64,000 nucleotides of DNA, from assembly GCA_964291675.2 (NCBI GenBank), contig OZ219866.1, positions 1,568,001 to 1,632,000 of the forward strand, in the 5' to 3' direction. Under the pieces are notes generated by a model. That model was not told the DNA's origin. It saw only the letters and a list, made by a program, of their open reading frames with translations, and ran no database searches. Below, piece by piece: positions 6,307 through 58,595 of the stretch. A program made the translations under genes and the position numbers. How positions within the stretch are numbered: the first letter of the stretch is position 1; each line of letters begins with the position of its first letter. The DNA comes from Alphaproteobacteria bacterium (GTDB lineage: Bacteria > Pseudomonadota > Alphaproteobacteria > MPNO01).

Positions 6307-6870
6307 TCAATTCAGCAGCGACGGATGCGCCCATGCCTTCCAGGACACGGGTAGAGACTGGGGGCCGAGCTTGCCGGCGTCGTTACGGACGGTGGTTCTG
6401 TAGATCGCCTCGTCCTTTCCGCTGCTCATCGGATAGAGAGCGGATATCCTGACGCGTGCGAGCGGCACGGGCTGCTTGAACAGGGCGATGAATGTCTCGG
6501 CCATGTACCGCTCGATTTTTTGCTGAAGCTTTCGCTTCGAGGCTGTCAGAATTCCGCCCGCTCGGAATTCGATGTCGACCAGCTTCGCGGACCGGGCGAA
6601 GGCGTCCCCTTCGGTCATTCGCCCGGCCTTGATGTCCGGGAGGTATTTCACGAAGAGATTCTCGCCGGTCGGATCCGTCATGGAATCGCGGACGGTCGCT
6701 GCGTCCAGGACTTGGCGCATGACCGAGGACCCGCAGATGACGGCGGCGATCCTGGCACTGTCGATCCCGGTCGCCTTCGACACGTCTACGCGGTCGATGC
6801 AGGCCGCCTGGGCGAGCGCGGGGATGCACAGCAGCGCGGCTGTGGCGAGATATACGTGAATTGTTCGCAT
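6307..6870 (-). CDS. Exported hypothetical protein
   Basis: Signal peptide MRTIHVYLATAALLCIPALAQA. Confidence 0.7.
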   Translation of the reverse strand: MRTIHVYLATAALLCIPALAQAACIDRVDVSKATGIDSARIAAVICGSSVMRQVLDAATVRDSMTDPTGENLFVKYLPDIKAGRMTEGDAFARSAKLVDIEFRAGGILTASKRKLQQKIERYMAETFIALFKQPVPLARVRISALYPMSSGKDEAIYRTTVRNDAGKLGPQSLPVSWKAWAHPSLLN

Positions 6871-7313
6871 TGTCGGGTGTCCGATCCTTTGCTAGATGGA
6901 GACCGCCGAGTCATCGGCATAGTGTACTGATGGCAGCCTCCATCGGTGCGCCAGAGGCGGGGCAACCCGGCACGGTTGCCCTGGCTCGCTTCCAGTCCGA
7001 AGCGTAAGCTCGTCAGGGACCGCCGCGTCACCAAGGTGGCCAGCGTCCCATATTCCGGACTCGGCGGGTGCCGGGCCGGCGTCAACACTTCTCGGAGAGA
7101 AAGTCCCGACTGTTCGCCAGGCCGGGGAGCTACCCCGTGCCGGGTCAAGGGCTGTTCTATTCAGATGCCGTAATGGGGCTTGGCGCTCTGCGGCATCGTC
7201 GGAGCTTGTGGCGATATCGGTGATTCGGGTGTCGTTGCCCTTACACGCTAGGCGTGTTCACGGGGTCTTGCCGCAAGGCGCGCCCCAATCCCTAGGAAGG
7301 AAAGGGCAACGAC

Positions 7314-8354
7314 ATGGAAGTCTATATCGGGCTGGATGTATCGCTGGCAAGCACGGCGATCTGCGTTCTCGGCGAGAAGGGGAAGCTGGTGACGGAGGCG
7401 CGGGTTGCCAGCGCTCCGGAGTCTCTGGTGTCGTTCATGCGCGAGCTGCCATACAGAATCGCGGCGATCGGCCTCGAGGCCGGTCCTCTGTCGCAATGGC
7501 TGTACAAGGGGCTGACCGAGGCCGGCTTCGAGGCCGTGCTGATGGAGACCCGGCAGGTGAAGGCGGCGCTGAAGGCGATGCCGATCAAGACCGACCGCCG
7601 GGACGCGGAGGGCATCGCGCGGCTGTTGCAGATGGGCTGGTTCCGGCCGGTGCACTGCAAGACGGTGTCGTCGCAGGAGATGCGGGCGCTGCTGAGCTCG
7701 CGCAAGTCGGTCTTGGACGTGCTCATCAAGATCGAGCTTTCGCTGCGCGGCGTGCTACGCAACTTCGGGCTCAAGCTGGGTGCAGTCTCGAAGGGCCGCT
7801 ACGAAGCCCGGGTGCGGGAGCTGATCGCCGGCAACTCGATGCTGGAGGCTGCCGCCGAACCGATCCTACGTGCGCGGGCGGCCCTGCGCCGCGAGCTGGC
7901 CGGGCTGGAGAAGCAGGTCCGCAAGCTGGCAAGTCAGGATCCGGTGTCCCGCCTCTTGATGACCATGCCTGGCGTCGGCCCGGTCGTGGCGCTGACGTTC
8001 GTGTCCGCGGTCGACGATCCCGAGCGGTTCCGGAGATCGAAGGATGTCGGCCCCTGGGTGGGGCTGACGCCGGGCCGGAACCAGTCCGGCGAACGCGATG
8101 TCGTCGGCGCGATCACCAAGGCCGGCGACGCCGGCCTGCGCACGGCGCTCTACCAGGCGGCGACGGTGATGCTGCACCGCGGGGGCCCGAACTGGCTGAA
8201 GGCCTGGGCGCTGCGCCTCGCGGTGCTGCGCGGCAGGAAGCGCGCAACCGTCGCGCTGGCCCGGCGGATCGGGGTGGTGCTTCACCGGATGTGGCGGGAC
8301 GGCACCGAGTTCCGCTTCACGCGCGAAGCGGCGATGGCGCTTCGCACGGCATAG
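7314..8354 (+). CDS. IS110 family recombinase (DEDD RuvC-like + Tnp domain)
   Basis: YIGLDVS, GLEAG, KTDRRDA, MPGVGP, GLTP..NQSG. Confidence 0.95.
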   Translation: MEVYIGLDVSLASTAICVLGEKGKLVTEARVASAPESLVSFMRELPYRIAAIGLEAGPLSQWLYKGLTEAGFEAVLMETRQVKAALKAMPIKTDRRDAEGIARLLQMGWFRPVHCKTVSSQEMRALLSSRKSVLDVLIKIELSLRGVLRNFGLKLGAVSKGRYEARVRELIAGNSMLEAAAEPILRARAALRRELAGLEKQVRKLASQDPVSRLLMTMPGVGPVVALTFVSAVDDPERFRRSKDVGPWVGLTPGRNQSGERDVVGAITKAGDAGLRTALYQAATVMLHRGGPNWLKAWALRLAVLRGRKRATVALARRIGVVLHRMWRDGTEFRFTREAAMALRTA

Positions 8355-8439
8355 GCGCGGCCGTGCCGTAGTGGCCGTCAACAGGAAGAGGAAGAGAGGA
8401 CCCCGCCTGAAGGTGGCGATCCAACGGTGTCCCCTCGCC

Positions 8440-8660
8440 GGGACGCGGTTCCCGATGATGCACGTGTTGCCCGCTGTCCGCCGAACCCAATCATTGTGTT
8501 CGAGCACGCTATTCAGATCGGCACTCGGGAATCGCCCTGGACCAGGCATGATGTTGGCGGCCGACGCGCCGACCACGGACGGAAGCAAGAGCCTGGCGAC
8601 GGACACTTCCGGGATCGCGAGCCCTTCTCAAGACGGGAAGCTTTTCCAATCGACCGTCCC
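8440..8660 (+). ncRNA. Candidate bridge/seek RNA of the IS1111-type element
   Basis: CTATTCAGAT (8509-8518) equals the left junction; TCGCCC (8532-8537) is complementary to right-flank GGGCGA; ACGGAAGC (8579-8586) equals the right junction; boundaries approximate. Confidence 0.6.
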
Positions 8661-8889
8661 TGATCCAGAGCCGCACGACCTCCGGGAGGTCGTGAACCAC
8701 GCCTGGGGCGATACAATCCGACCCAGGCGCCGCAGCTCGTGAACGAAAAACCGAACCGAGACGGTCTGCTGTTGAAAATCGTGCTTGACGGGAAACGCCC
8801 CATTACGGAAGCGGGCGACCCGACAGAGCGGGAGCCCTAGAAGCGTTGACCGGGGAGAAGCCTAGCGCAGTGCCGGCAAAAGTGCGCAT

Positions 8890-9160
8890 TTATTGTTGTC
8901 GCCCTCGCCGCCCCCGGTTCGGGATCTCCCGGGTCTCAACGCTGCCGCATTTCCCGCAGTATCGGCCCTCGGACCAATGGATCGCCTCGAACCAGCGATC
9001 CGGCGACTCCTCGTCGGGGAACATGTCCGTGAGTTCTACGATCGAGATACCCTTGCGGTGCGCTTTTCCGGGTGCTTTCTTCGCCATGTCGGGTGTGCTT
9101 TTTGCCCCCTATTATCGTATCGGAGAACACCCGCGCTTTCAAGTTAGATATATAATTTAT
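8890..9160 (-). pseudogene. Truncated IS1595 transposase (zinc-ribbon N-terminus) with a degenerate left TIR
   Basis: MAKKAPGKAHRKGISIVELTDMFPDE..CGKCGS similar to 12511; AATTATATATCT..TTGAA at ~9140-9158. Confidence 0.75.
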
Positions 9161-9420
9161 TTCTTTTTGGGCTCGGGCTTCTTATTAGGCTCGACCTGCT
9201 TGTCTGCGGCCTCCTTGCTATTCTTGGCGTCAGCGGTCGCAGGATTGCCATCGGTTGTGGGAATGGTGGAAGTGGCGGGACTCCACGTCTTGGCGATGAC
9301 AGCTTTGCGTAAAGAGTCGTCGTGCCAATCGACGCTCCCTACACCCATTGCAAAAGCGATAATTGGAAGGATGACCATCACTAAGGCTTTTCCAATGGTG
9401 GCAACCCAATCGGGCATCAC
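9157..9420 (-). CDS. Small membrane-anchored hypothetical protein
   Basis: N-terminal TM; overlaps the stop of 9417..9920. Confidence 0.55.
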   Translation of the reverse strand: MMPDWVATIGKALVMVILPIIAFAMGVGSVDWHDDSLRKAVIAKTWSPATSTIPTTDGNPATADAKNSKEAADKQVEPNKKPEPKKK

Positions 9421-9920
9421 TTGATCTCCTTCCGCATTGCTTCAATGATTTTGACCGCCGATTCGTCACCCTTTCGTCCGGCGTACCAGTAGGTGACGAT
9501 CGCTGCCGCGACAGGCAGAATAGTCAGGAAGATGTCCTTGCCAGTGGCAATATCTCCGATTGCTAGCAAGTATCCGACCACGGCGGCGCCTACGAGGAAC
9601 AGGAACCCGGCGGCGATGTAGGTCACGGCGATCCGAACCGCGCTGCGCCGGTTCTCCCGCTTCGCATTCTCAACAGCTTCGGCGTCACTCTCGTTGCTGC
9701 TATCCGCATTGGTCGCGGCGGTCGCGGTTGCCGTTGCGGCAACCGGCATTGTTTCTGACTCCGATGATTCGGCAAGCTTGGCGGGCGAAGAATCTTCCGT
9801 AGGCTTGGGCTCTTTTGCCGAGGAGGTGTCCTCACTAGGTTTCCCGTCGTTGGGGTCAGCCTTGGATTCCTGTGACGTCTCAGTTGAGACGCTCTTGTTT
9901 TCGTCCTTGTCCTCAGCCAT
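9417..9920 (-). CDS. Membrane protein with acidic low-complexity N-terminus and two C-terminal TMs
   Basis: AGGAGG RBS; hydrophobic C-terminal helices. Confidence 0.7.
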   Translation of the reverse strand: MAEDKDENKSVSTETSQESKADPNDGKPSEDTSSAKEPKPTEDSSPAKLAESSESETMPVAATATATAATNADSSNESDAEAVENAKRENRRSAVRIAVTYIAAGFLFLVGAAVVGYLLAIGDIATGKDIFLTILPVAAAIVTYWYAGRKGDESAVKIIEAMRKEIK

Positions 9921-10186: not shown

Positions 10187-12103
10187 GAGTGCCAGGCTAA
10201 CTGGTGGAAGGGTAGCGGGTGAAAGTCCCGCGAAACGAAAGGAGTAGCCAACCACGTTTCTCCGCGAGCCGTGCATCGTCGGCCGTGAGGCCGGGGGTGA
10301 AGCGTCGGTAGCGGTGCATGCGGGCAGGGATATTGAGCGCCGAAAACGAGATGGTCCGAAGTGCCGAGACGTTTAAGCTCGTCGAAGGCAACATCGTCCA
10401 CACCGCAATATGGCGAGGTGTGGGGGAGCTTCGCGGCGTCGGGGACCCCATGCACGCATGTAAGCCCACCACCGGGACCTGGGAGGTCTTCACACTGCCC
10501 CGATGGTCGTATCGGGGCCGCGAAGGGAAGGAGGTATCCGAAGCCTGAGATGAACGGAGTGAAGAAGTCGGACGGGGCCATAGTACCGTCGAAGCGGGCG
10601 AACAACGGGGCGCGAGCCTCTGCGGAGTCCGTGGAGGAAAGGGCCTCGACCAAGGGGAATCCGCGAAGCGAAAGCACGCGCCGGACGCAGAGCCGGGAAA
10701 GCGTGACCCAGGCCGCCGAGCGGATACGTCAAGCTGCAACGAGGAAACCGCAGGAGAAACTGACGGCGCTCCTGCATCATGTCACGCCGGACGCGCTGCG
10801 CTGGGCCTTCCACGCGCTGAAGCGGGACGCCGCGGCGGGGGTGGACGGCATGACATGGGCCGAGTACGCGAACGGGCTGGAAGAGCGGCTGCTCGACCTG
10901 CACCGGCGCGTACAGTCCGGGGCGTATCGGGCGCCGCCGGTCCGGCGGGTAGAGATACCCAAGCCGGATGGCGGGACACGACCGCTCGGCGTCGCCGCGC
11001 TGGAGGACAAGATCGTCCAGAAGGCGGTGACGGAGATCATCCTGACGCCGATCTACGAGCCGGTCTTCCTCGGCTTCAGCTACGGGTTCCGACCGGGGCG
11101 CGGGGCGCATGACGCACTCGACGCGCTTGCTGTCGCCATCAATCGGCGGAAGGTCAACTGGGTGGTCGACTGCGACATCCAAAGGTTTTTCGATTCTGTT
11201 TCGCGGGACTGGCTCGTCCGGTTCCTTGAGCACCGGATCGGGGATCGGCGGGTGATCCGGCTGATCGCCAAGTGGCTGAAAGCCGGCGTCATGGTCGATG
11301 GCCGGTGGGAGGACACGCAGCAGGGCACGCCGCAAGGGGCGATCGTCTCAGCCACGCTGGCGAACGTGTATCTGCACTATGTCCTCGACCTCTGGTTCCA
11401 TCGCAAGTGGCGGCCCGAAAGGGCAGATGGCGATGCCATCATCGTACGCTACGCCGATGATGTGGTCGTCGGCTTCCAGCGCAAGAGGGACGCGGAACGC
11501 TTCCTGCATGCGCTTGGGGAACGGCTCGGCCAGTTCGATCTGGCCCTGCATCCGGCCAAGACCCGGCTCATCGAGTTCGGCAGGTTCGCGGAAGTGGACC
11601 GCCGGGCACGGGGGCTGGGCCGCCCGGAGACGTTCGACTTCCTGGGCTTCACGCACTATTGCAGGACGACCAGGAGCGGGCAGTTCGGGCTCGGACGCAA
11701 GCCCGTTGCAAAGCGGATGAGCCGCACCCTGAAGCGCATCGCGGAGGTTCTGCGGCGGCGCAGGCACCACGACCTCCACGAGGTCGCCCGGTGGCTGGGG
11801 CGGGTAGTCAACGGATGGCTGAACTACTACGCCGTCCCGACGAGTGCCCGCTTCCTGCGAAGCTTCACCTACATCCTGAAACGGATATGGCTGAAGGCGC
11901 TGCGCCGACGGTCGCAACGGGATCGCTTCAGCTGGCAACGGCTGCAAGCCCTGGTTGACCGATACTGGCCCAAGCCATGGATCCGACACCCGTGGCCGGG
12001 GCAGCGGTTCGACGTCAAATACCCGAGGTAGGAGCCGGATGGCTTAACGGCCACGTCCGGATCTGTGCGGGGGGCGCCGGGAAACCGGCGTCCCTACCGC
12101 GAC
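10187..12103 (+). mobile_element. Group II intron (bacterial class E-like), antisense to a DUF1353 pseudogene
   Basis: 5' GAGTGCCAGGCTAAC; domain V GAGCCGGATG..CACGTCCGGATCTG; domain VI ending CCCTACCGCGAC. Confidence 0.85.
10550..12031 (+). CDS. ltrA: Group II intron reverse transcriptase/maturase, no En domain
   Basis: IPKPDGGTRPLG, FSYGFRPGR, GTPQG, RYADD, FDFLGF; start uncertain (10550 or ~10703). Confidence 0.95.
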   Translation: MNGVKKSDGAIVPSKRANNGARASAESVEERASTKGNPRSESTRRTQSRESVTQAAERIRQAATRKPQEKLTALLHHVTPDALRWAFHALKRDAAAGVDGMTWAEYANGLEERLLDLHRRVQSGAYRAPPVRRVEIPKPDGGTRPLGVAALEDKIVQKAVTEIILTPIYEPVFLGFSYGFRPGRGAHDALDALAVAINRRKVNWVVDCDIQRFFDSVSRDWLVRFLEHRIGDRRVIRLIAKWLKAGVMVDGRWEDTQQGTPQGAIVSATLANVYLHYVLDLWFHRKWRPERADGDAIIVRYADDVVVGFQRKRDAERFLHALGERLGQFDLALHPAKTRLIEFGRFAEVDRRARGLGRPETFDFLGFTHYCRTTRSGQFGLGRKPVAKRMSRTLKRIAEVLRRRRHHDLHEVARWLGRVVNGWLNYYAVPTSARFLRSFTYILKRIWLKALRRRSQRDRFSWQRLQALVDRYWPKPWIRHPWPGQRFDVKYPR

Positions 12104-12510: not shown

Positions 12511-13467
12511 TTGGCACAGAAGGCACCCGGCAAGCATCACCGCGAAGGCATGACGCTGATGCAGGCGTGCGAGATGTTCCCGGACGACGCGATGGCCGAG
12601 GCATGGTTCGCGGCCAGGCGCTGGCCTGACGGAGCGCATTGCCCGTACTGCGGATCGGTCAACATCCTGTCCGGTGCGGTGCACAAGACGATGCCCTACC
12701 GCTGCCGCGAGAAGGAATGCCGCAAGCGATTCTCCGTCCGCACCGGAACCGCGATGGAAGAGTCGAAGCTGGGCTATCGCGTATGGGCGATGGCCCTTTA
12801 CCTGTTCTCGTCCAACCTCAAGGGTGTGAGCAGCATGAATCTCCACCGCGATCTTGGCATTACGCAGAAATCGGCGTGGTTCCTCGCCCACCGCATCCGC
12901 GAGGCATGGGGCGATTTCGGCGGCATGTTTGACGGCCCGGTTGAGGCCGATGAGTGCTACATCGGCGGCAAGCGGTAGAACATGAGCAACGCCAAGCGGA
13001 AGGAACTGGCGGGCACGGGCCGCGGCGCTGTCGGCAAAACCGCCGTGGTCGGCGTGAAGGATCGCGCGACCAATCGGGTTTCCGCCCGGACGGTCGAGCA
13101 TACCACCTCTCCCTATCTGGCGGGCTTCGTCGCCGAGAAGACGAAGATGGGCGCGACCGCCTACACCGACGATGCCACCGTCTACAACGCGCTCGGCCCG
13201 TGGTTCCGGCATGAGACCGTCAACCACAGCGCCCATGAGTACGTCCGAGGGCAGGCGCATACCAATGGCATCGAGTCGTTCTGGTCCATGCTCAAGCGCG
13301 GGATCGTCGGCACGTTCCACCATCTGAGCCCGCAGCATCTAGACCGCTACGTCGGCGAATTCTCCGGTCGCCACAACGTGCGGGATCGGAACACCATTGA
13401 TCAGATGTCATCGCTGGCGCGCGGTATGGTCGGCAAGCGGCTGATGTATCGCGATCTGATCGCGTAG
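12511..13467 (+). pseudogene. IS1595 transposase with an in-frame TAG at 12976
   Basis: CPYCGS zinc ribbon, VEADECYIGG, YTDD, HETVNHS, HTNGIESFWSMLKR. Confidence 0.9.
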
Positions 13468-15670: not shown

Positions 15671-15715
15671 GGTGAGTCTCGGGTGCCCCGGCCCCGGAAT
15701 TGGTGCCGGGCCGTT

Positions 15716-15841
15716 TGCACTATCGCGCAGAGATTGCGGAAGCCCCGCGTATTCGCCCCGGCCGGGTAGCTACTCCCTGCCGTCGAACGGGCTCTTGTAT
15801 TGAGCGGGCGACCCGACATCGGGTCTCCGCGCGATAGTGCA
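15716..15841. ncRNA. Structured motif copy B
   Basis: TGCACTATCGCGC/GCGCGATAGTGCA outer stem, TCGCCC/GGGCGA stem, two inner hairpins. Confidence 0.65.
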
Positions 15842-15883
15842 GGGGGAAGCGTAGGCGCTGGATTGTTGGAAATCCAGAACTTT

Positions 15884-15916
15884 GGTCACTATAATATGGA
15901 GAGACGGACGGAGGGC
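15884..15916 (+). promoter_or_regulatory. Conserved -10 box and leader GGTCACTATAATATG...ACGGAGGGC
   Basis: Same GGTCACTATAATATG on the minus strand at ~18009-18023. Confidence 0.6.
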
Positions 15917-16138
15917 ATGGCTGCAATGGCGAGCAAGATCGTCACCTGCAAACTTCAACTCGACGAGGATGCGACACGGATAGCGGAAGCCGCGGCGGCA
16001 ATGCTGAAATCACAAGGGCGACCGTCCGACATCGACGCGATCGTTTCCAACGCTGTTCGCATCGCCTACGGCACCCGCGTCTCCGAGCTCGTCAAGGATG
16101 CCGGAGGAATGACGGTCAGCGATCTTGTCGGCCCCTGA
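15917..16138 (+). CDS. Small hypothetical protein, possibly ribbon-helix-helix-like
   Basis: GGAGGG RBS; beta-alpha-alpha-like pattern. Confidence 0.55.
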   Translation: MAAMASKIVTCKLQLDEDATRIAEAAAAMLKSQGRPSDIDAIVSNAVRIAYGTRVSELVKDAGGMTVSDLVGP

Positions 16139-16162
16139 ACGCGGAGAAAGACGGAGGGCGCG

Positions 16163-16336
16163 ATGTCAGAGACCAAGGGCGCGAAGCGGCGGAAGCCGCC
16201 GAGCAAGCATCAGCCGACGAAGGCCGAGATGGAAGAGGTCATCGTGATCGACGCGAGCCTCGACCAGCTCGCGAGCGCGGTGCTGGTGAGTGGGGCGAAG
16301 CGTCGGGAGCCCGAGAAGTCCGCCACCTCAAAGTGA
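16163..16336 (+). CDS. 57-aa basic protein associated with IS1595 elements
   Basis: Manual ORF MSETKGAKRRKPPSKHQPTKAEMEEVIVIDASLDQLASAVLVSGAKRREPEKSATSK; degraded paralog at 17794-17987. Confidence 0.7.
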   Translation: MSETKGAKRRKPPSKHQPTKAEMEEVIVIDASLDQLASAVLVSGAKRREPEKSATSK

Positions 16337-16356
16337 TCCTCGATCGCGGGATCTTG

Positions 16357-16920
16357 ATGCCCCGTCTGATCCCGCCAGTCGTTGCCCTGGCCCTCGTGCT
16401 CGCGGCACCAGCCAGCGCGGTGGAGAAGGCCACGGAGCGTGACCGTTCCCGCTTATGGAACGACTGTAGGCCAGTGGATGTGATAGTCGTTGGTTTGTCG
16501 GATGACGCTGGAAAGATCGGACTCCGCAGGAAGACCCTTGAGACGGCGGTGCGGAGTCGTCTGCGGGGTGCCCGCATTTATGACGGCATTCCGCCTGCTA
16601 GAGAGCCACGCTGGATCGGATGGAAGGTCGACCACGTCCGCTATGGCGAGCCATTCCTCTATCTGGATGTCAATGTTGTCGGCGTCGCTTTCGGCGTTGA
16701 AGTAGGATTTCGTAGATCCGTGATGATGCTGTTGCCGGTGCCGGATGGCATGGACCCGCTTGTTGGTCCGGCGACCACATGGGCGAGCGGCAGTACAGGC
16801 ACACACGGCGGCAATTCGTCCTATGTCCTGTCAGCCGTCACCGAACTTGTGGACGAATTTATCGACGAGTACCTCCGGGTGAACTGGGACGCCTGCGAGA
16901 AACTGCCCCCGGCCCAATAA
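16357..16920 (+). CDS. Exported protein, paralog of 5460..5975
   Basis: Signal peptide; ETAVRSRLRGARIYD. Confidence 0.8.
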   Translation: MPRLIPPVVALALVLAAPASAVEKATERDRSRLWNDCRPVDVIVVGLSDDAGKIGLRRKTLETAVRSRLRGARIYDGIPPAREPRWIGWKVDHVRYGEPFLYLDVNVVGVAFGVEVGFRRSVMMLLPVPDGMDPLVGPATTWASGSTGTHGGNSSYVLSAVTELVDEFIDEYLRVNWDACEKLPPAQ

Positions 16921-16938
16921 CTTCGAAGGAGAGGACGA

Positions 16939-17184
16939 ATGGCGGAACTGTGGCTGGTCACATGCCTTGAGAGCATGGAAGAAAAGTGGACCGAAGAAGT
17001 CCGTCTCTCGAACCAAGACATGCGAACGCTTTTGCAGATGCTCCTTTGCCGAACCCTTGAGCCCCATGAAATAATCGCTGCTGTGACAGGACGGCGCGAC
17101 CATCTGCTTGAAATCCGTCAAGAGGGCAACGGCATGTACACGGCAGCCAGCACCGTGTTGCACTACACGGCTCGGAAGGTATAG
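16939..17184 (+). CDS. Hypothetical protein (IS cargo)
   Basis: GGAGAGG RBS; ends just before the right TIR. Confidence 0.6.
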   Translation: MAELWLVTCLESMEEKWTEEVRLSNQDMRTLLQMLLCRTLEPHEIIAAVTGRRDHLLEIRQEGNGMYTAASTVLHYTARKV

Positions 17185-17307
17185 CCTCAAGGGCACTCAG
17201 GTATATAAGCCCCTTTCGTATCGAAGGTCGACCACGCGGATCGGCTCCGCCGGATACGCGCATGTCATCGTCGGTCCCGTCCCGGGCGCGCCCGGTCCGG
17301 CGGCGGG

Positions 17308-17562
17308 CTAGGGGCGCGCCTCGCCCACCGTGAACGCGTCATCCGCCATCTCGGGGTCCATCGAGGCCGCGTGCTCTTTCCTGTAGGCCGGCCACTTGTG
17401 ATTCCAAATGTCGGTGCCCGAGACGCCGAAATCCTCGTCCGTGATGTGGCCGCTCTTGCGCAGCTCGCAGTACAGACTGGGGCCCATCTTGACGCCGACA
17501 CGGGTCGGCGCCTGTCTCGCGATATCCGGGTCGATCTGCTGGAGTTGTTGTTGGACGTTCAT
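17308..17562 (-). CDS. Hypothetical protein
   Basis: 84-aa ORF with plausible composition. Confidence 0.55.
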   Translation of the reverse strand: MNVQQQLQQIDPDIARQAPTRVGVKMGPSLYCELRKSGHITDEDFGVSGTDIWNHKWPAYRKEHAASMDPEMADDAFTVGEARP

Positions 17563-17793
17563 GGCTTCGGATGGGGATTATATGCCTGAGTGCCCCGCGC
17601 GTCATTTGTACGCCATCCAGATGACGGCACCGACGACGACGGCAATGACGATCAGGACGGTCGTGAGGACGGCTTTCCAGAAGAACGCGATCAGAAACCC
17701 GGCGATCTTGCGGATGCTCGGGTCGCGGATGTAGGGCCGTAGGAGTTCCTCGACGACAATCGCTAGCGTTGACTGGCGGGAGCGTCTCCCCAT

Positions 17794-17987
17794 TCAGCGC
17801 GGGCCAGACGGGGACTGGGGCGCTTCCTCACCTTTGATGGGCTCCCGGCGTTTCGCTCCGACCGCCTGCACCGAGCCCGCGAGCTGGTCGAGCGTCGCGT
17901 CGATCACGAGGTACTCTTCCATCTCGACCTTCGTCGCCTGATGCTAGTTCGGCGGCTTCCGTCGCGTCGCGCCCTTGTCTCTGACAT
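17794..17987 (-). pseudogene. Paralog of the 57-aa ORF (frameshift + TAG)
   Basis: HQATKVEMEEYLVIDATLDQLAGSV. Confidence 0.7.
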
Positions 17988-18066
17988 CGCGCCCTCCGTT
18001 TGTCGCTTCATATTATAGTGACCGCACCGCTGGCCTTGCAGCAGTCCAGCGGCTACGTCTTCCCCA

Positions 18067-18194
18067 GCAAACGCGCAAGTTGCGATCCCGCTCTGCCGGG
18101 TCGCCATCTGGATACAACAGCCCTTGACCCGGCGGGGATCGCTCCCGCGCGCGGCGAATATGCGGGGAACGCACACGCCACTTAAGACGTTTGC
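18067..18194. ncRNA. Structured motif copy C (inverted relative to A and B)
   Basis: Reverse complement GCAAACG..TATTCGCC..GGGTCAAGGGCTGTTGTATCCAGATGGCGACCCGGCAGAGCGGGA..CGTTTGC. Confidence 0.65.
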
Positions 18195-18297
18195 AACGGC
18201 CCGGCTCTATCGCCGGGGCCGGGTGACACAGCGGGAGAGGGGCATGCGCAGAGTGTGCGGGGTGCTTACTGCGTTCGTGGTCAGTGGTAGTTTGATC

Positions 18298-58241: not shown

Positions 58242-58519
58242 TCGAGGCAGACCCCTTGTCGATTCCAATAGAGTCTTGCATCTGGCCCGGCGGGCGTCAA
58301 GCTGAACGAAGTTTGCGAAGGCAAATGCATGCAGAGGCATGAACCACTTTGTATGATTGCGTCTGAAGATCAAATGAGCGAGTACGCTTTCCCAGTATGA
58401 TACGCTGCGGGACCGTCAATCAGGGTTTACTTGGAGCGGCAACCCGGATTTCACACCAGTTCAATTTGCCCGGTTATTTGGTCTGGCTGCCGGTCATGGC
58501 GGTGTCGTCTGGATGCGCG

Positions 58520-58595
58520 CGAGGGGTAGCGCTGGCGCCTGAGGCGCGGTGTGGTGACCGCATGTGGCGGGACGGCACCCAGTTCCGCGTCACCC
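58520..58595 (+). pseudogene. Small IS110 C-terminal remnant
   Basis: RMWRDGTQFR matches HRMWRDGTEFR at ~8285-8320. Confidence 0.5.

What the first reader, a model, noticed from the sequence alone, without database searches (positions are those of the whole stretch)
7157..8818. RNA-guided IS1111-type IS110 targets the structured motif; guides readable in its 3' end
Seen: the IS sits at CTATTCAG^CGGGCGA in the T-loop-like arm of copy A. Its 3' non-coding end holds CTATTCAGAT (8509), then TCGCCC (8532, complement of the right target flank), then ACGGAAGC (8579, donor right end), in target-loop then donor-loop order. Circularisation at the AG core would place TTGACG (8785) 17 nt from a weak GAAGAT. 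Established: IS110/IS1111 elements encode bridge/seek RNAs, and IS1111 members target structured repeats such as attC and REP. Inference: a programmable recombinase that parasitises a new repeat class on another mobile element.
Basis: partly seen in the sequence, partly recalled or inferred. Interest (0 to 1): 0.85.

Follow-up and report, generated by a model that had tools for sequence, protein, structure and literature searches.

The report
RNA-guided IS1111-type insertion sequence
This is an ordinary member of the known RNA-guided IS110/IS1111 insertion sequences, sitting at the site its own guide RNA specifies inside a conserved structured leader sequence that has not been described as an RNA family.

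Summary
Window 7165-8811 is a 1647-bp IS110-family element of the IS1111 type. It has a 346-aa DEDD transposase (7314-8354), perfect 12-bp subterminal inverted repeats and a 457-nt 3' non-coding region. It is inserted at CTATTC-AG^CGGGCGAC, and uninterrupted copies of the site exist in the same genome.

Comparing 25 guide types from related elements shows two 3' segments that change with the flanks. Window 8466-8475 complements the AG core plus the right flank. Window 8509-8518 equals the left flank plus the core. No permutation out of 20000 reached the observed match.

Its TCGCCC at 8532 is not a guide: it is one strand of a conserved helix and does not follow the flanks. The true right-flank guide lies upstream of the left-flank guide, which is the published IS1111 order.

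All four elements carrying this guide pair abut the same motif at the same position. The motif is a roughly 190-nt structured element found in 11 of 20 genomes of the family. It looks like a 5' leader of exported-protein genes on the opposite strand, not a repeat carried by a mobile element.

Verdict: a new member of a known kind. The RNA, the circle and activity are untested.

The parts
7050..7164 (-). Left half of target motif copy A. It ends with the left target half-site CTATTC plus the AG core (7157-7164). The likely RNA sense of the motif is the minus strand.
   Evidence: nhmmer hit C2:1575050-1575167. Alignment of the script-joined flanks to uninterrupted copies. Strand inferred from G.U pairs, promoter and downstream ORF.
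7165..8811 (+). The insertion sequence, 1647 bp. It is the only full copy in this genome.
   Evidence: Boundaries come from comparison with empty sites and from 51 related loci that all show ..AG|AT[GA]C[CT]GTA at the left junction. Contigs of run X1 cross both junctions with 0 differences; X1 may be the sample the window was assembled from, so this is not independent support.
7168..7179 (+). Left subterminal inverted repeat CCGTAATGGGGC, preceded by the 3-nt extension ATG (7165-7167).
   Evidence: It is the perfect reverse complement of 8797-8808 and is conserved in related elements.
7314..8354 (+). Transposase/recombinase gene, 346 aa. Candidate DEDD residues are D8, E55, D94 and D97. The motif G250-L-T-P-G-R-N-Q-S258-G259 is also present.
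   Evidence: Pfam PF01548 (7.7e-13) and PF02371 (3.2e-24). NCBIfam NF033542 'IS110 family RNA-guided transposase', 240.9 bits against a cut-off of 140. PDB relatives are ISCro4 9t56 and IS621 8wt6.
8432..8602 (+). Predicted bridge/seek RNA core, closed by helix P1 (8432-8442 with 8592-8602). The other helices are P2 8445-8454/8526-8535, P3 8457-8461/8521-8524, P4 8480-8484/8500-8505 and P5 8553-8561/8568-8576.
   Evidence: 41 pairs were counted on 27 guide types. 96.0% of cells are paired, against 29.5-40.7% when partners are slid. 8 pairs change on both sides, reached by 0 of 500 shuffles. Frequent G.U pairs in this sense fit transcription with tnp.
8466..8475 (+). Target guide T (right-target guide), GTTGCCCGCT. 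It can pair with top-strand AG+CGGGCGAC in 10 of 10 positions if one U.G pair is allowed. It lies on the 5' side of the target loop.
   Evidence: Alignment. Over 8 nt, identity to the element's own right flank is 5.68 and to others' 2.25, with 0 of 20000 permutations as high.
8509..8518 (+). Target guide B (left-target guide), CTATTCAG+AT. It is identical to the left flank plus core plus the first 2 nt of the element, and lies on the 3' side of the target loop.
   Evidence: Alignment. Over 6 nt, identity to the element's own left flank is 4.2 and to others' 1.57, with 0 of 20000 permutations as high.
8532..8537 (+). It is scaffold, not a guide: 8532-8535 pair with 8445-8448 in helix P2.
8545..8549 (+). 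Donor-loop segment GGCAT, the reverse complement of the element's first 5 nt (ATGCC). It lies on the 5' side of the donor loop.
   Evidence: Alignment A2. Where L155's left end is ATACC, its segment reads GTAT. Other end variants would give wobble pairs (read by eye).
8579..8585 (+). Donor-loop segment ACGGAAG, identical to the element's last 7 nt. It lies on the 3' side of the donor loop.
   Evidence: It changes together with the right end in L108 (ACAGAAG) and L098 (ACGAAAG). It does not in L155 and L082.
8785..8790 (+). Outward-facing -35 box TTGACG. After circularisation it stands 17 nt from GAAG|AT (8808-8811 plus 7165-7166).
   Evidence: TTGAC[ACGT] at exactly 17 nt in 26 of 27 guide types. 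The one exception is L098.
8797..8808 (+). Right subterminal inverted repeat GCCCCATTACGG, followed by the 3-nt extension AAG (8809-8811). The last two bases are the AG core.
8812..8890 (-). Right half of target motif copy A. It starts with the right target half-site CGGGCGAC (8812-8819).
   Evidence: nhmmer hit C2:1576810-1576890.

Best explanation
Window 7165-8811 is an IS110-family insertion sequence of the IS1111 type.

Shown here:
- It encodes a DEDD recombinase.
- Downstream of that gene lies a structured non-coding region of about 170 nt (8432-8602) with two internal loops.
- In the first loop, the 5' side (8466-8475) is complementary to the top strand of the AG core plus the right flank. 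The 3' side (8509-8518) is identical to the top strand of the left flank plus the core. The two matches overlap at the core.
- In the second loop, 8545-8549 is complementary to the element's left end and 8579-8585 is identical to its right end.
- The two target-loop segments covary with the flanks across related elements. The fold is conserved with compensatory changes. The element sits exactly at the 16-bp site its loops spell, inside a conserved motif.

Inferred from published work on IS621, ISEc11 and their relatives, not tested here:
- The element excises as a circle in which the ends abut at the AG core.
- The junction creates a promoter (TTGACG, 17 nt, GAAGAT) that drives the recombinase gene and, by read-through, the 3' RNA.
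- The RNA binds the recombinase and pairs with both strands of target and donor, so that strand exchange at AG inserts the circle.

The chosen target, CTATTC-AG-CGGGCGAC, is the most conserved stretch of a multi-copy structured leader. That gives the element several identical landing sites per genome.
For: Protein family:
- Pfam PF01548 and PF02371.
- NCBIfam NF033542, 240.9 bits against a cut-off of 140.
- PDB relatives ISCro4 and IS621.

Ends:
- A 12-bp perfect subterminal inverted repeat.
- All 51 related loci whose alignment reaches the left end have a left flank ending in AG. 48 of the 51 have a right end ending in AAG.

Insertion site:
- Empty sites exist in the same genome.

Guides:
- 25 guide types were drawn from 49 elements with both ends defined.
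- Cognate against non-cognate identity is 4.2 against 1.57 of 6, and 5.68 against 2.25 of 8. 0 of 20000 permutations reached either value.

Fold:
- 96.0% of 1101 cells are paired, against 29.5-40.7% when partners are slid. 8 pairs change on both sides.

Same guide pair, same site:
- The window element, L124, L070 and L193 all (4 of 4) have the motif's right half at the right junction.
- Both elements with an intact left end (2 of 2) have the motif's left half there.

Junction promoter:
- A -35 box at 17 nt in 26 of 27 guide types.

Published model:
- PMC11187229 (abstract and sections 6, 9, 13 read; passages): 3' non-coding region, top-strand complement before bottom-strand match, overlapping matches, circle-junction promoter.
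- PMC11208160 (passages): bridge RNA predicted in the right end of 93.0% of IS1111 elements.
Against: - No RNA data exist: no listed run that holds the element is RNA. Transcription, processing, binding and activity are all inferred.
- The element is single-copy, although one perfect and one 1-mismatch target are free in the same genome. It may be inactive or a recent arrival.
- Six of the 25 guide types fit their flanks poorly on one or both sides. These are L073 (left 1 of 6), L089 (2 of 6 and 1 of 8), L107 (2 of 6 and 2 of 8), L067 (right 0 of 8), L099 (right 1 of 8) and L091 (right 3 of 8).
- Donor-segment covariation rests on few variants: 2 changes follow the right end and 2 do not.
- The terminal extensions are 3+3 nt (or 5+1), not the 7+3 or 6+3 described for IS1111 members.
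- GAAGAT is a weak -10 box.
Confidence: 0.88

Rival explanations
1. The target loop would consist of CTATTCAGAT (8509) followed by TCGCCC (8532), so the left-flank match precedes the right-flank match, as in IS110-type elements.
For: TCGCCC is a 6 of 6 reverse-complement match to positions 2-7 of the right flank in this element, and L124 has the same.
Against: Across 25 guide types this position does not follow the flank: 1.48 of 6 identities for own flanks against 1.53 for others'. The sequence ATCG[CT] is kept in elements with unrelated flanks. Positions 8532-8535 pair with 8445-8448 in helix P2, which is 97.9% paired in its helix group. A different segment, 8466-8475, does follow the right flank.
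Confidence: 0.03
2. The element is a dead or domesticated relic. Its sequence is intact but it no longer moves in this host, and the guide-target match only records a past insertion.
For: There is one full copy in the genome, while a perfect target (motif copy B) and a 1-mismatch target (copy D) are unoccupied. Truncated 3' remnants of relatives exist in sister genomes: L070, L077, L079 and L080. No RNA run holds the element; that is no evidence either way.
Against: The reading frame is open over the full 346 aa, as in most relatives, with the DEDD and SG motifs present. Both ends, the inverted repeats, the -35 box and all helices of the RNA are intact. Relatives are multi-copy in other genomes, for example 7 loci from one assembly and 5 from another.
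Confidence: 0.3
3. Target choice is made by the protein recognising the shape of the structured motif as a DNA cruciform or hairpin, as once thought for attC- and REP-targeting elements. On this reading the RNA matches would be incidental.
For: The site lies in a helix of a structured motif.
Against: Related elements with 73-94% identical recombinases sit in unrelated, unstructured-looking flanks that match their own loops. Experiments on family members show that the RNA sets the target (PMC11187229 abstract; PMC11208160).
Confidence: 0.03

Closest known systems
IS1111-family insertion sequences with a 3' seekRNA (ISEc11, ISPa11, ISKpn4, ISPst6; Siddiquee et al. 2024, PMC11187229)
   Same: The long non-coding region lies downstream of tnp. 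The subterminal inverted repeats are 12 bp, within the published 11-13 bp. The transposase is 346 aa, within the published 330-350. The GL-P----SG motif is present. [quoted passage not shown] A circle-junction promoter is predicted.
   Different: The terminal extensions are 3+3 nt (or 5+1), not 7+3 or 6+3. The target is a different sequence, a structured leader motif of an alphaproteobacterial family. No experiment has been done on this element.
IS621 / IS110-group bridge RNA (Durrant et al. 2024, PMC11208160; structures 8wt6, 9t56)
   Same: There are two internal loops, one matching the target and one matching the donor. A core dinucleotide is shared by target and donor. Both strands are read. 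The recombinase has the DEDD and PF02371 domains.
   Different: The RNA is in the right end, not the left end. The order of the two target guides is reversed. The core is AG rather than CT (the IS621 core is recalled, not from a call). PDB sequence matches are weak and significant only over the C-terminal half (E 1e-13 to 2e-14).
IS1111 members that target repeated structured sequences: attC (ISPa21, ISPst6 group), REP (ISPpu9, ISPpu10), Tn21 inverted repeats (IS4321, IS5075)
   Same: Each inserts at one fixed position of a multi-copy conserved element, which gives many equivalent landing sites. Sources: reference titles seen, and the ISPpu9 abstract.
   Different: The repeat here is neither attC, REP nor a transposon end. 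It has no Rfam match at gathering score and only a weak sRNA-Xcc1 hit, 26.8 bits against 53. It looks like a transcribed 5' leader of exported-protein genes.

Membership tests
IS110 family (DEDD RNA-guided transposases) | N-terminal DEDD/RuvC-like domain and C-terminal Transposase_20 domain | tested here: met
   PF01548 at 49 bits (cut-off 29) and PF02371 at 85.6 bits (cut-off 21.3). NF033542 at 240.9 bits (cut-off 140).
IS110 family (DEDD RNA-guided transposases) | Catalytic D-E-D-D residues and the conserved S of the SG motif | tested here: inconclusive
   D8, E55, D94, D97 and S258-G259 sit in the motifs IGLDVS, GLEAG, KTDRRDA and GLTPGRNQSG. They line up with the ISCro4 chain in a weak N-terminal alignment and a good C-terminal one. 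Which residues are catalytic is recalled from the literature, not tested.
IS110 family (DEDD RNA-guided transposases) | No target duplication beyond a shared core dinucleotide; site-specific insertion | tested here: met
   AG occurs at both junctions, and the empty site carries a single AG. All 51 related loci have AG at the left junction.
IS1111 group | Subterminal inverted repeats of 11-13 bp (7-17 bp in another account) | tested here: met
   12-bp perfect repeats at 7168-7179 and 8797-8808.
IS1111 group | Long non-coding region downstream of tnp | tested here: met
   149 nt lie before tnp and 457 nt after it.
IS1111 group | Transposase of 330-350 aa with the GL-P----S(t)G motif | tested here: met
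   346 aa, with GLTPGRNQSG at 250-259.
IS1111 group | Terminal extensions of 7 (or 6) bp on the left and 3 bp on the right beyond the repeats | tested here: not met
   The extensions are 3+3 nt, or 5+1 if the core is assigned to the left. The paper describes this as usual; I do not read it as defining.
IS1111 group | Transposase falls in the IS1111 clade of a phylogeny | not tested
Bridge RNA / seekRNA | RNA segments matching both strands of the target, overlapping at the core, that covary with the target among relatives | tested here: met
Bridge RNA / seekRNA | Donor-matching segments in a second internal loop | tested here: inconclusive
   GGCAT and ACGGAAG lie in the second loop. The element ends barely vary, so covariation is thin: 2 changes follow the right end and 2 do not.
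Bridge RNA / seekRNA | Conserved secondary structure | tested here: met
Bridge RNA / seekRNA | The RNA is made, binds the recombinase and is required for transposition | not testable with these tools
   No RNA run holds the element.
Any Rfam family (for the RNA and for the target motif) | Match at gathering score | tested here: not met
   No family reached E <= 1 over 8355-8811 apart from two chance-level hits. The motif copies gave only sRNA-Xcc1, at 26.8 bits against 53. In the whole window only a group II intron passes.

The most novel reading that the evidence does not exclude
The element's landing site is the invariant core of an undescribed cis-regulatory leader RNA. This leader is about 190 nt long and has a free-varying 14-16-bp closing helix, two GAAUAG-bearing loops and a GC hairpin next to the start codon. 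It sits in front of diverse lipoprotein and secreted-protein genes in one alphaproteobacterial family. IS1111-type elements would then use a conserved regulatory RNA gene as a multi-copy safe harbour, switching off one exported protein at each hop. In addition, the 25 guide types found here among recombinases 73-94% identical form a natural reprogramming series for this right-end type of bridge RNA.
Probability: 0.45. Interest if true: 0.55.

Novelty: new member of a known kind. Interest (0 to 1): 0.3.

Why it matters
The finding adds no new mechanism. RNA-guided target choice by IS110 and IS1111 elements has been established since 2024.

Three things are worth keeping.
- It gives a clean natural data set: 25 guide types, with both target guides located by covariation. 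This fixes the register of the target loop for one clade of IS1111-type elements, which would help anyone wanting to reprogram right-end bridge RNAs.
- It corrects by example a typical reading error: a perfect 6-nt match that is really a helix strand.
- It points to the target motif, a conserved structured element with no Rfam family, upstream of exported-protein genes. That motif deserves its own study.

Tried and rejected
Rfam
- The element's surroundings (6500-9500) gave only two chance-level hits, sX12 and CRISPR-DR29, at E 0.14-0.29.
- Three motif loci gave only sRNA-Xcc1, at 26.8 bits against a gathering score of 53. I considered an integron attC site on that hint and dropped it. The motif copies are not in arrays, their orientations are mixed, and the conserved part is the centre rather than the ends.

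tRNA
- A tRNA-like reading of the 'T-loop-like arm' was dropped. ARAGORN finds no tRNA in the window.

RNA expression and sequencing runs
- No RNA holder is listed.
- Laying contigs of four runs showed many relatives of the element and many uninterrupted motif variants. Some joints skip the element with other letters in between, and a loose end at 7164 runs on as the right half-site in run X2. These are metagenome contigs that may come from other motif copies or other organisms, so I do not count them as excision.

Motif strand
- Deciding the strand from G.U against A.C pairs in the outer helix was inconclusive: 21 against 34 over 30 copies. The inner helices decided it.

Proteins downstream of the motif
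- Pfam on 10 of them found no common family. One has CsgG, and one has a sub-threshold TbpB_B_D match.

Rows dropped
- L111 and L114: no right end was found. L120: its right end lacks AAG.
- The L086 type and the L155 type were left out of the permutation test because my pattern did not capture their right-flank guide. L082 was left out because its left flank is cut by the contig end.
- For elements with tandem extra right ends (L102, L110, L113, L124) I used the flank after the last copy. With the first copy instead, they match 2 of 8.
- L086, L087 and L088 share the window's left-flank guide, but their left flank is unrelated (GATGACCTCAG). I did not explain this.

Not done
- ISfinder could not be consulted.
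- Supplementary files of PMC11187229 (target logos for over 300 elements) and PMC11208160 (Supplementary Table 5) were closed. They may already list this element or its target.
- I made no literature search for the motif itself, so I claim only that Rfam 15 lacks it.
Full report
WHAT IS THERE

The window holds one open frame of 346 aa at 7314-8354 on the plus strand. It carries the two Pfam domains of IS110-family transposases, PF01548 and PF02371. It scores 240.9 bits against NCBIfam NF033542, 'IS110 family RNA-guided transposase', whose cut-off is 140. Its nearest solved relatives are the ISCro4 and IS621 recombinases.

The gene is flanked by a perfect 12-bp inverted repeat, CCGTAATGGGGC at 7168-7179 and its complement at 8797-8808. 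Each repeat lies 3 nt inside the element. The element is 7165-8811, 1647 bp, with 149 nt before the gene and 457 nt after it.

THE INSERTION POINT

I joined the window's flanks in a script, leaving the element out, and searched the genome with the result. The join aligns across the junction to four uninterrupted places. One of them, C2:3221252-3221330, reads CTATTCAGCGGGCGACCCGAC without a break. So the element sits at CTATTC-AG^CGGGCGAC. The AG is present at both junctions and only once in the empty site.

The genome has a single full copy of the element. Contigs of run X1 cross both junctions without a difference. X1 may be the sample the assembly came from, so this is not independent support.

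RELATIVES AND THE TEST OF THE GUIDES

A protein-based scan of genome contigs confirmed 546 relatives and kept the best 80. A DNA search of 61 related genomes found matches in 8. In 51 loci the alignment reaches the element's first base. All 51 have a left flank ending in AG followed by AT[GA]C[CT]GTA. In 48 of them I could also place a right end ending in AAG; L111, L114 and L120 were dropped.

Aligning the 3' non-coding regions of these 48 loci and the window shows a conserved scaffold with two short variable stretches.
- The stretch aligned with window 8509-8518 reads, in each element, like that element's left flank plus AG plus AT.
- The stretch aligned with 8466-8475 reads like the reverse complement of AG plus that element's right flank.

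I took one representative of each of 25 distinct guide pairs. Identity to the element's own flank is 4.2 of 6 and 5.68 of 8, against 1.57 and 2.25 for other elements' flanks. None of 20000 permutations reached either value.

Six types fit poorly on one or both sides: L073, L089, L107, L067, L099 and L091. Two types and one locus were left out for technical reasons, listed under Tried and rejected.

In the window element the first stretch, GTTGCCCGCT, can pair with AGCGGGCGAC at 10 of 10 positions if one U.G pair is allowed. The second, CTATTCAG, equals the left half-site. Together they spell a 16-bp site.

CTATTCAGAT at 8509 is right. ACGGAAGC at 8579 is right as a match to the element's right end. 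It lies in the second internal loop, and it changes together with the right end in L108 and L098, though not in L155 and L082.

TCGCCC at 8532 is wrong as a guide. The sequence ATCG[CT] is kept in elements with unrelated right flanks. Identity of that position to the own flank is 1.48 of 6 against 1.53 for others. Positions 8532-8535 form the 3' strand of a helix with 8445-8448.

The corrected order is complement of the top strand first, match to the top strand second. This is the order reported for IS1111-family seekRNAs and the reverse of the IS110 type (PMC11187229, section 9 and introduction passage).

THE FOLD

On an alignment of 27 guide types (A2) I counted a structure of five helices.
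- P1 (8432-8442 with 8592-8602) closes the whole.
- P2, P3 and P4 frame the target loop.
- P5 sits inside the donor loop.

Of 1101 cells, 96.0% form standard pairs, against 29.5-40.7% when partners are slid by 1-3 columns. Eight pairs change on both sides; the clearest is column 158 with 171, A-U in 14 sequences and G-C in 12. No shuffle out of 500 reached the observed values. I derived the structure from these same sequences, which favours it in the slid control, as the tool warns.

G.U pairs are frequent in this sense (18-19 of 27 at three pairs). That fits transcription in the direction of the gene. The stretch enclosed by P2 is about 90 nt, the size of the short seekRNAs reported (82-96 nt). 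That equivalence is my inference.

THE JUNCTION PROMOTER

If the ends are abutted at the core, TTGACG (8785-8790) stands 17 nt from GAAGAT. TTGAC plus any base lies at exactly that spacing in 26 of 27 guide types, although neighbouring bases vary. A promoter created at the circle junction is described for both families. GAAGAT is a poor -10 box, and nothing here shows that the promoter fires.

DOES IT TARGET THE MOTIF?

Four elements carry this guide pair.
- The window element.
- L124, from another assembly, whose recombinase is 93.6% identical.
- L070, a 5'-truncated remnant in a genome of the same genus.
- L193, a 5'-truncated copy on a metagenome contig.

All four have the motif's right half, starting CGGGCG, directly after the right end. 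The two with intact left ends have the motif's left half before it.

A different guide type (L067, identical to L085) has a left guide, CCCGACAG, that matches the same motif 17 nt further on, and it sits there. Its right flank is not motif sequence and does not fit its right guide.

In the window's genome the perfect 16-mer occurs once more, against 0.003 expected. With one mismatch allowed it occurs twice, against 0.17 expected. Both sites are motif copies and both are unoccupied.

WHAT THE MOTIF IS

An nhmmer profile finds six full or nearly full copies and a partial copy in this genome. A blastn search finds the motif in 11 of 20 genomes of the family, in 3 of 6 genera, with up to 6 matches per genome.

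Thirty-one copies align with these features:
- An invariant core.
- A 14-16-bp closing helix whose sequence differs in every copy: 376 Watson-Crick pairs of 480 positions in 30 copies.
- A covarying hairpin.
- A GC hairpin at one end.

RNAalifold on the strand opposite to the element's gene gives 28 pairs, 14 of them with compensatory changes. There are many G.U pairs, for example 26, 24 and 18 of 31 at three positions. These would be A.C mismatches on the other strand.

On that strand, TTGAC stands about 45 nt before the closing helix in 18 of 31 copies, followed after about 17 nt by a TAnnnT-like box (both read by eye). An ORF of at least 50 aa starts within 25 nt of the GC hairpin in 26 of 31 copies. 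About 17 of these begin, by eye, with a signal peptide or a lipobox such as LAACGGG. ORF calling by length in GC-rich DNA is crude.

Ten of the downstream proteins share no Pfam family. No Rfam family matches the motif.

My reading is a 5' leader RNA of exported-protein genes of unknown function. The rival reading, a DNA-level recombination site, is not excluded. Nothing I saw places the motif on a mobile element, although the window around it is rich in mobile-element debris. In copy A the element separates the leader's promoter side from ORF 6307-6870, which should silence that gene.

COMPARISON AND VERDICT

Every defining feature of an IS110-family, IS1111-type element that I could test is met, with one exception. 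The terminal extensions beyond the inverted repeats are 3+3 nt rather than 7+3.

The mechanism I assign is taken from experiments on other family members (PMC11187229, PMC11208160). It runs as follows: a circle forms, the junction promoter fires, the 3' RNA pairs with both strands of target and donor, and strand exchange occurs at AG. None of this is shown for this element.

The finding is therefore a correct recognition of a known kind of system, with one wrong guide assignment and an unsupported remark about the target's nature. I rate it a new member of a known kind, interest 0.3. The more unusual object is the target motif.

Noticed in passing
window 15684-15879 (+), 18029-18225 (-), 7050-7164 with 8812-8890 (+); also C2:3221196-3221384, C2:3223157-3223320, C2:2597577-2597767, C1:554536-554629: A structured motif of about 190 nt with a free-varying 14-16-bp closing helix and an invariant core. 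It has no Rfam match and occurs in 11 of 20 genomes of the family. On its likely RNA strand it has a TTGAC promoter in front and an exported-protein or lipoprotein ORF right behind a GC hairpin. It is a candidate new cis-regulatory leader RNA.
   Followed up: partly
L124 3996-4138; L086, L088, L102, L110, L113 (loci): Several relatives carry one or two extra tandem copies of the last 140-570 nt of the element. These copies cover part of the 3' non-coding region plus the right end. Only the last copy abuts the flank that fits the guide. How these tandem right ends arise is unexplained.
   Followed up: partly
L070, L077, L079, L080 (sister genomes G004, G007): Solo 3' modules consisting of guide-RNA scaffold plus right end, without a transposase gene or left end nearby. 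They are either truncated remnants or orphan guide-RNA copies like the extra ssr9 genes reported for ISPpu9 (abstract seen).
   Followed up: partly
L086, L087, L088 (one assembly): Three copies share the window element's left guide (CTATTCAG) but have a different right guide. All three have the same unrelated left flank (GATGACCTCAG), while the right flank after the last right end fits the guide. The left flank may belong to a larger repeated unit.
   Followed up: no
window 10222-10448 (+), with an ORF of 556 aa at about 10361-12031: Group II intron domains (RF02005, 170.3 bits), with a long ORF that I did not annotate.
   Followed up: no
window 8890-9087 (-) and about 12511-12978 (+): Short ORFs whose N-termini (MFPDEESPDRWFEAIHW..., MFPDDAMAEAWFAARRWPDGAHCPYCGS...) look to me like zinc-ribbon N-termini of IS1595-type transposases. 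This is recalled, not tested. The first is a 65-aa fragment directly beside the motif.
   Followed up: no
window 58511-58593 (+); C2:2374134-2374223; C1:191603-191697: Short stretches 77-88% identical to parts of the element. No ORF of 150 aa or more covers the first. They are probably remnants of other IS110-family elements.
   Followed up: partly
window 15880-18028: Motif copies E and C face each other 2.1 kb apart, and each is followed by the near-identical GGTCACTATAATATG. The small ORFs between them (for example MSETKGAKRRKPPSKHQ...) are related, with a frame change in one. A second pair of copies, about 1.8 kb apart, lies at C2:3221196-3223320.
   Followed up: no
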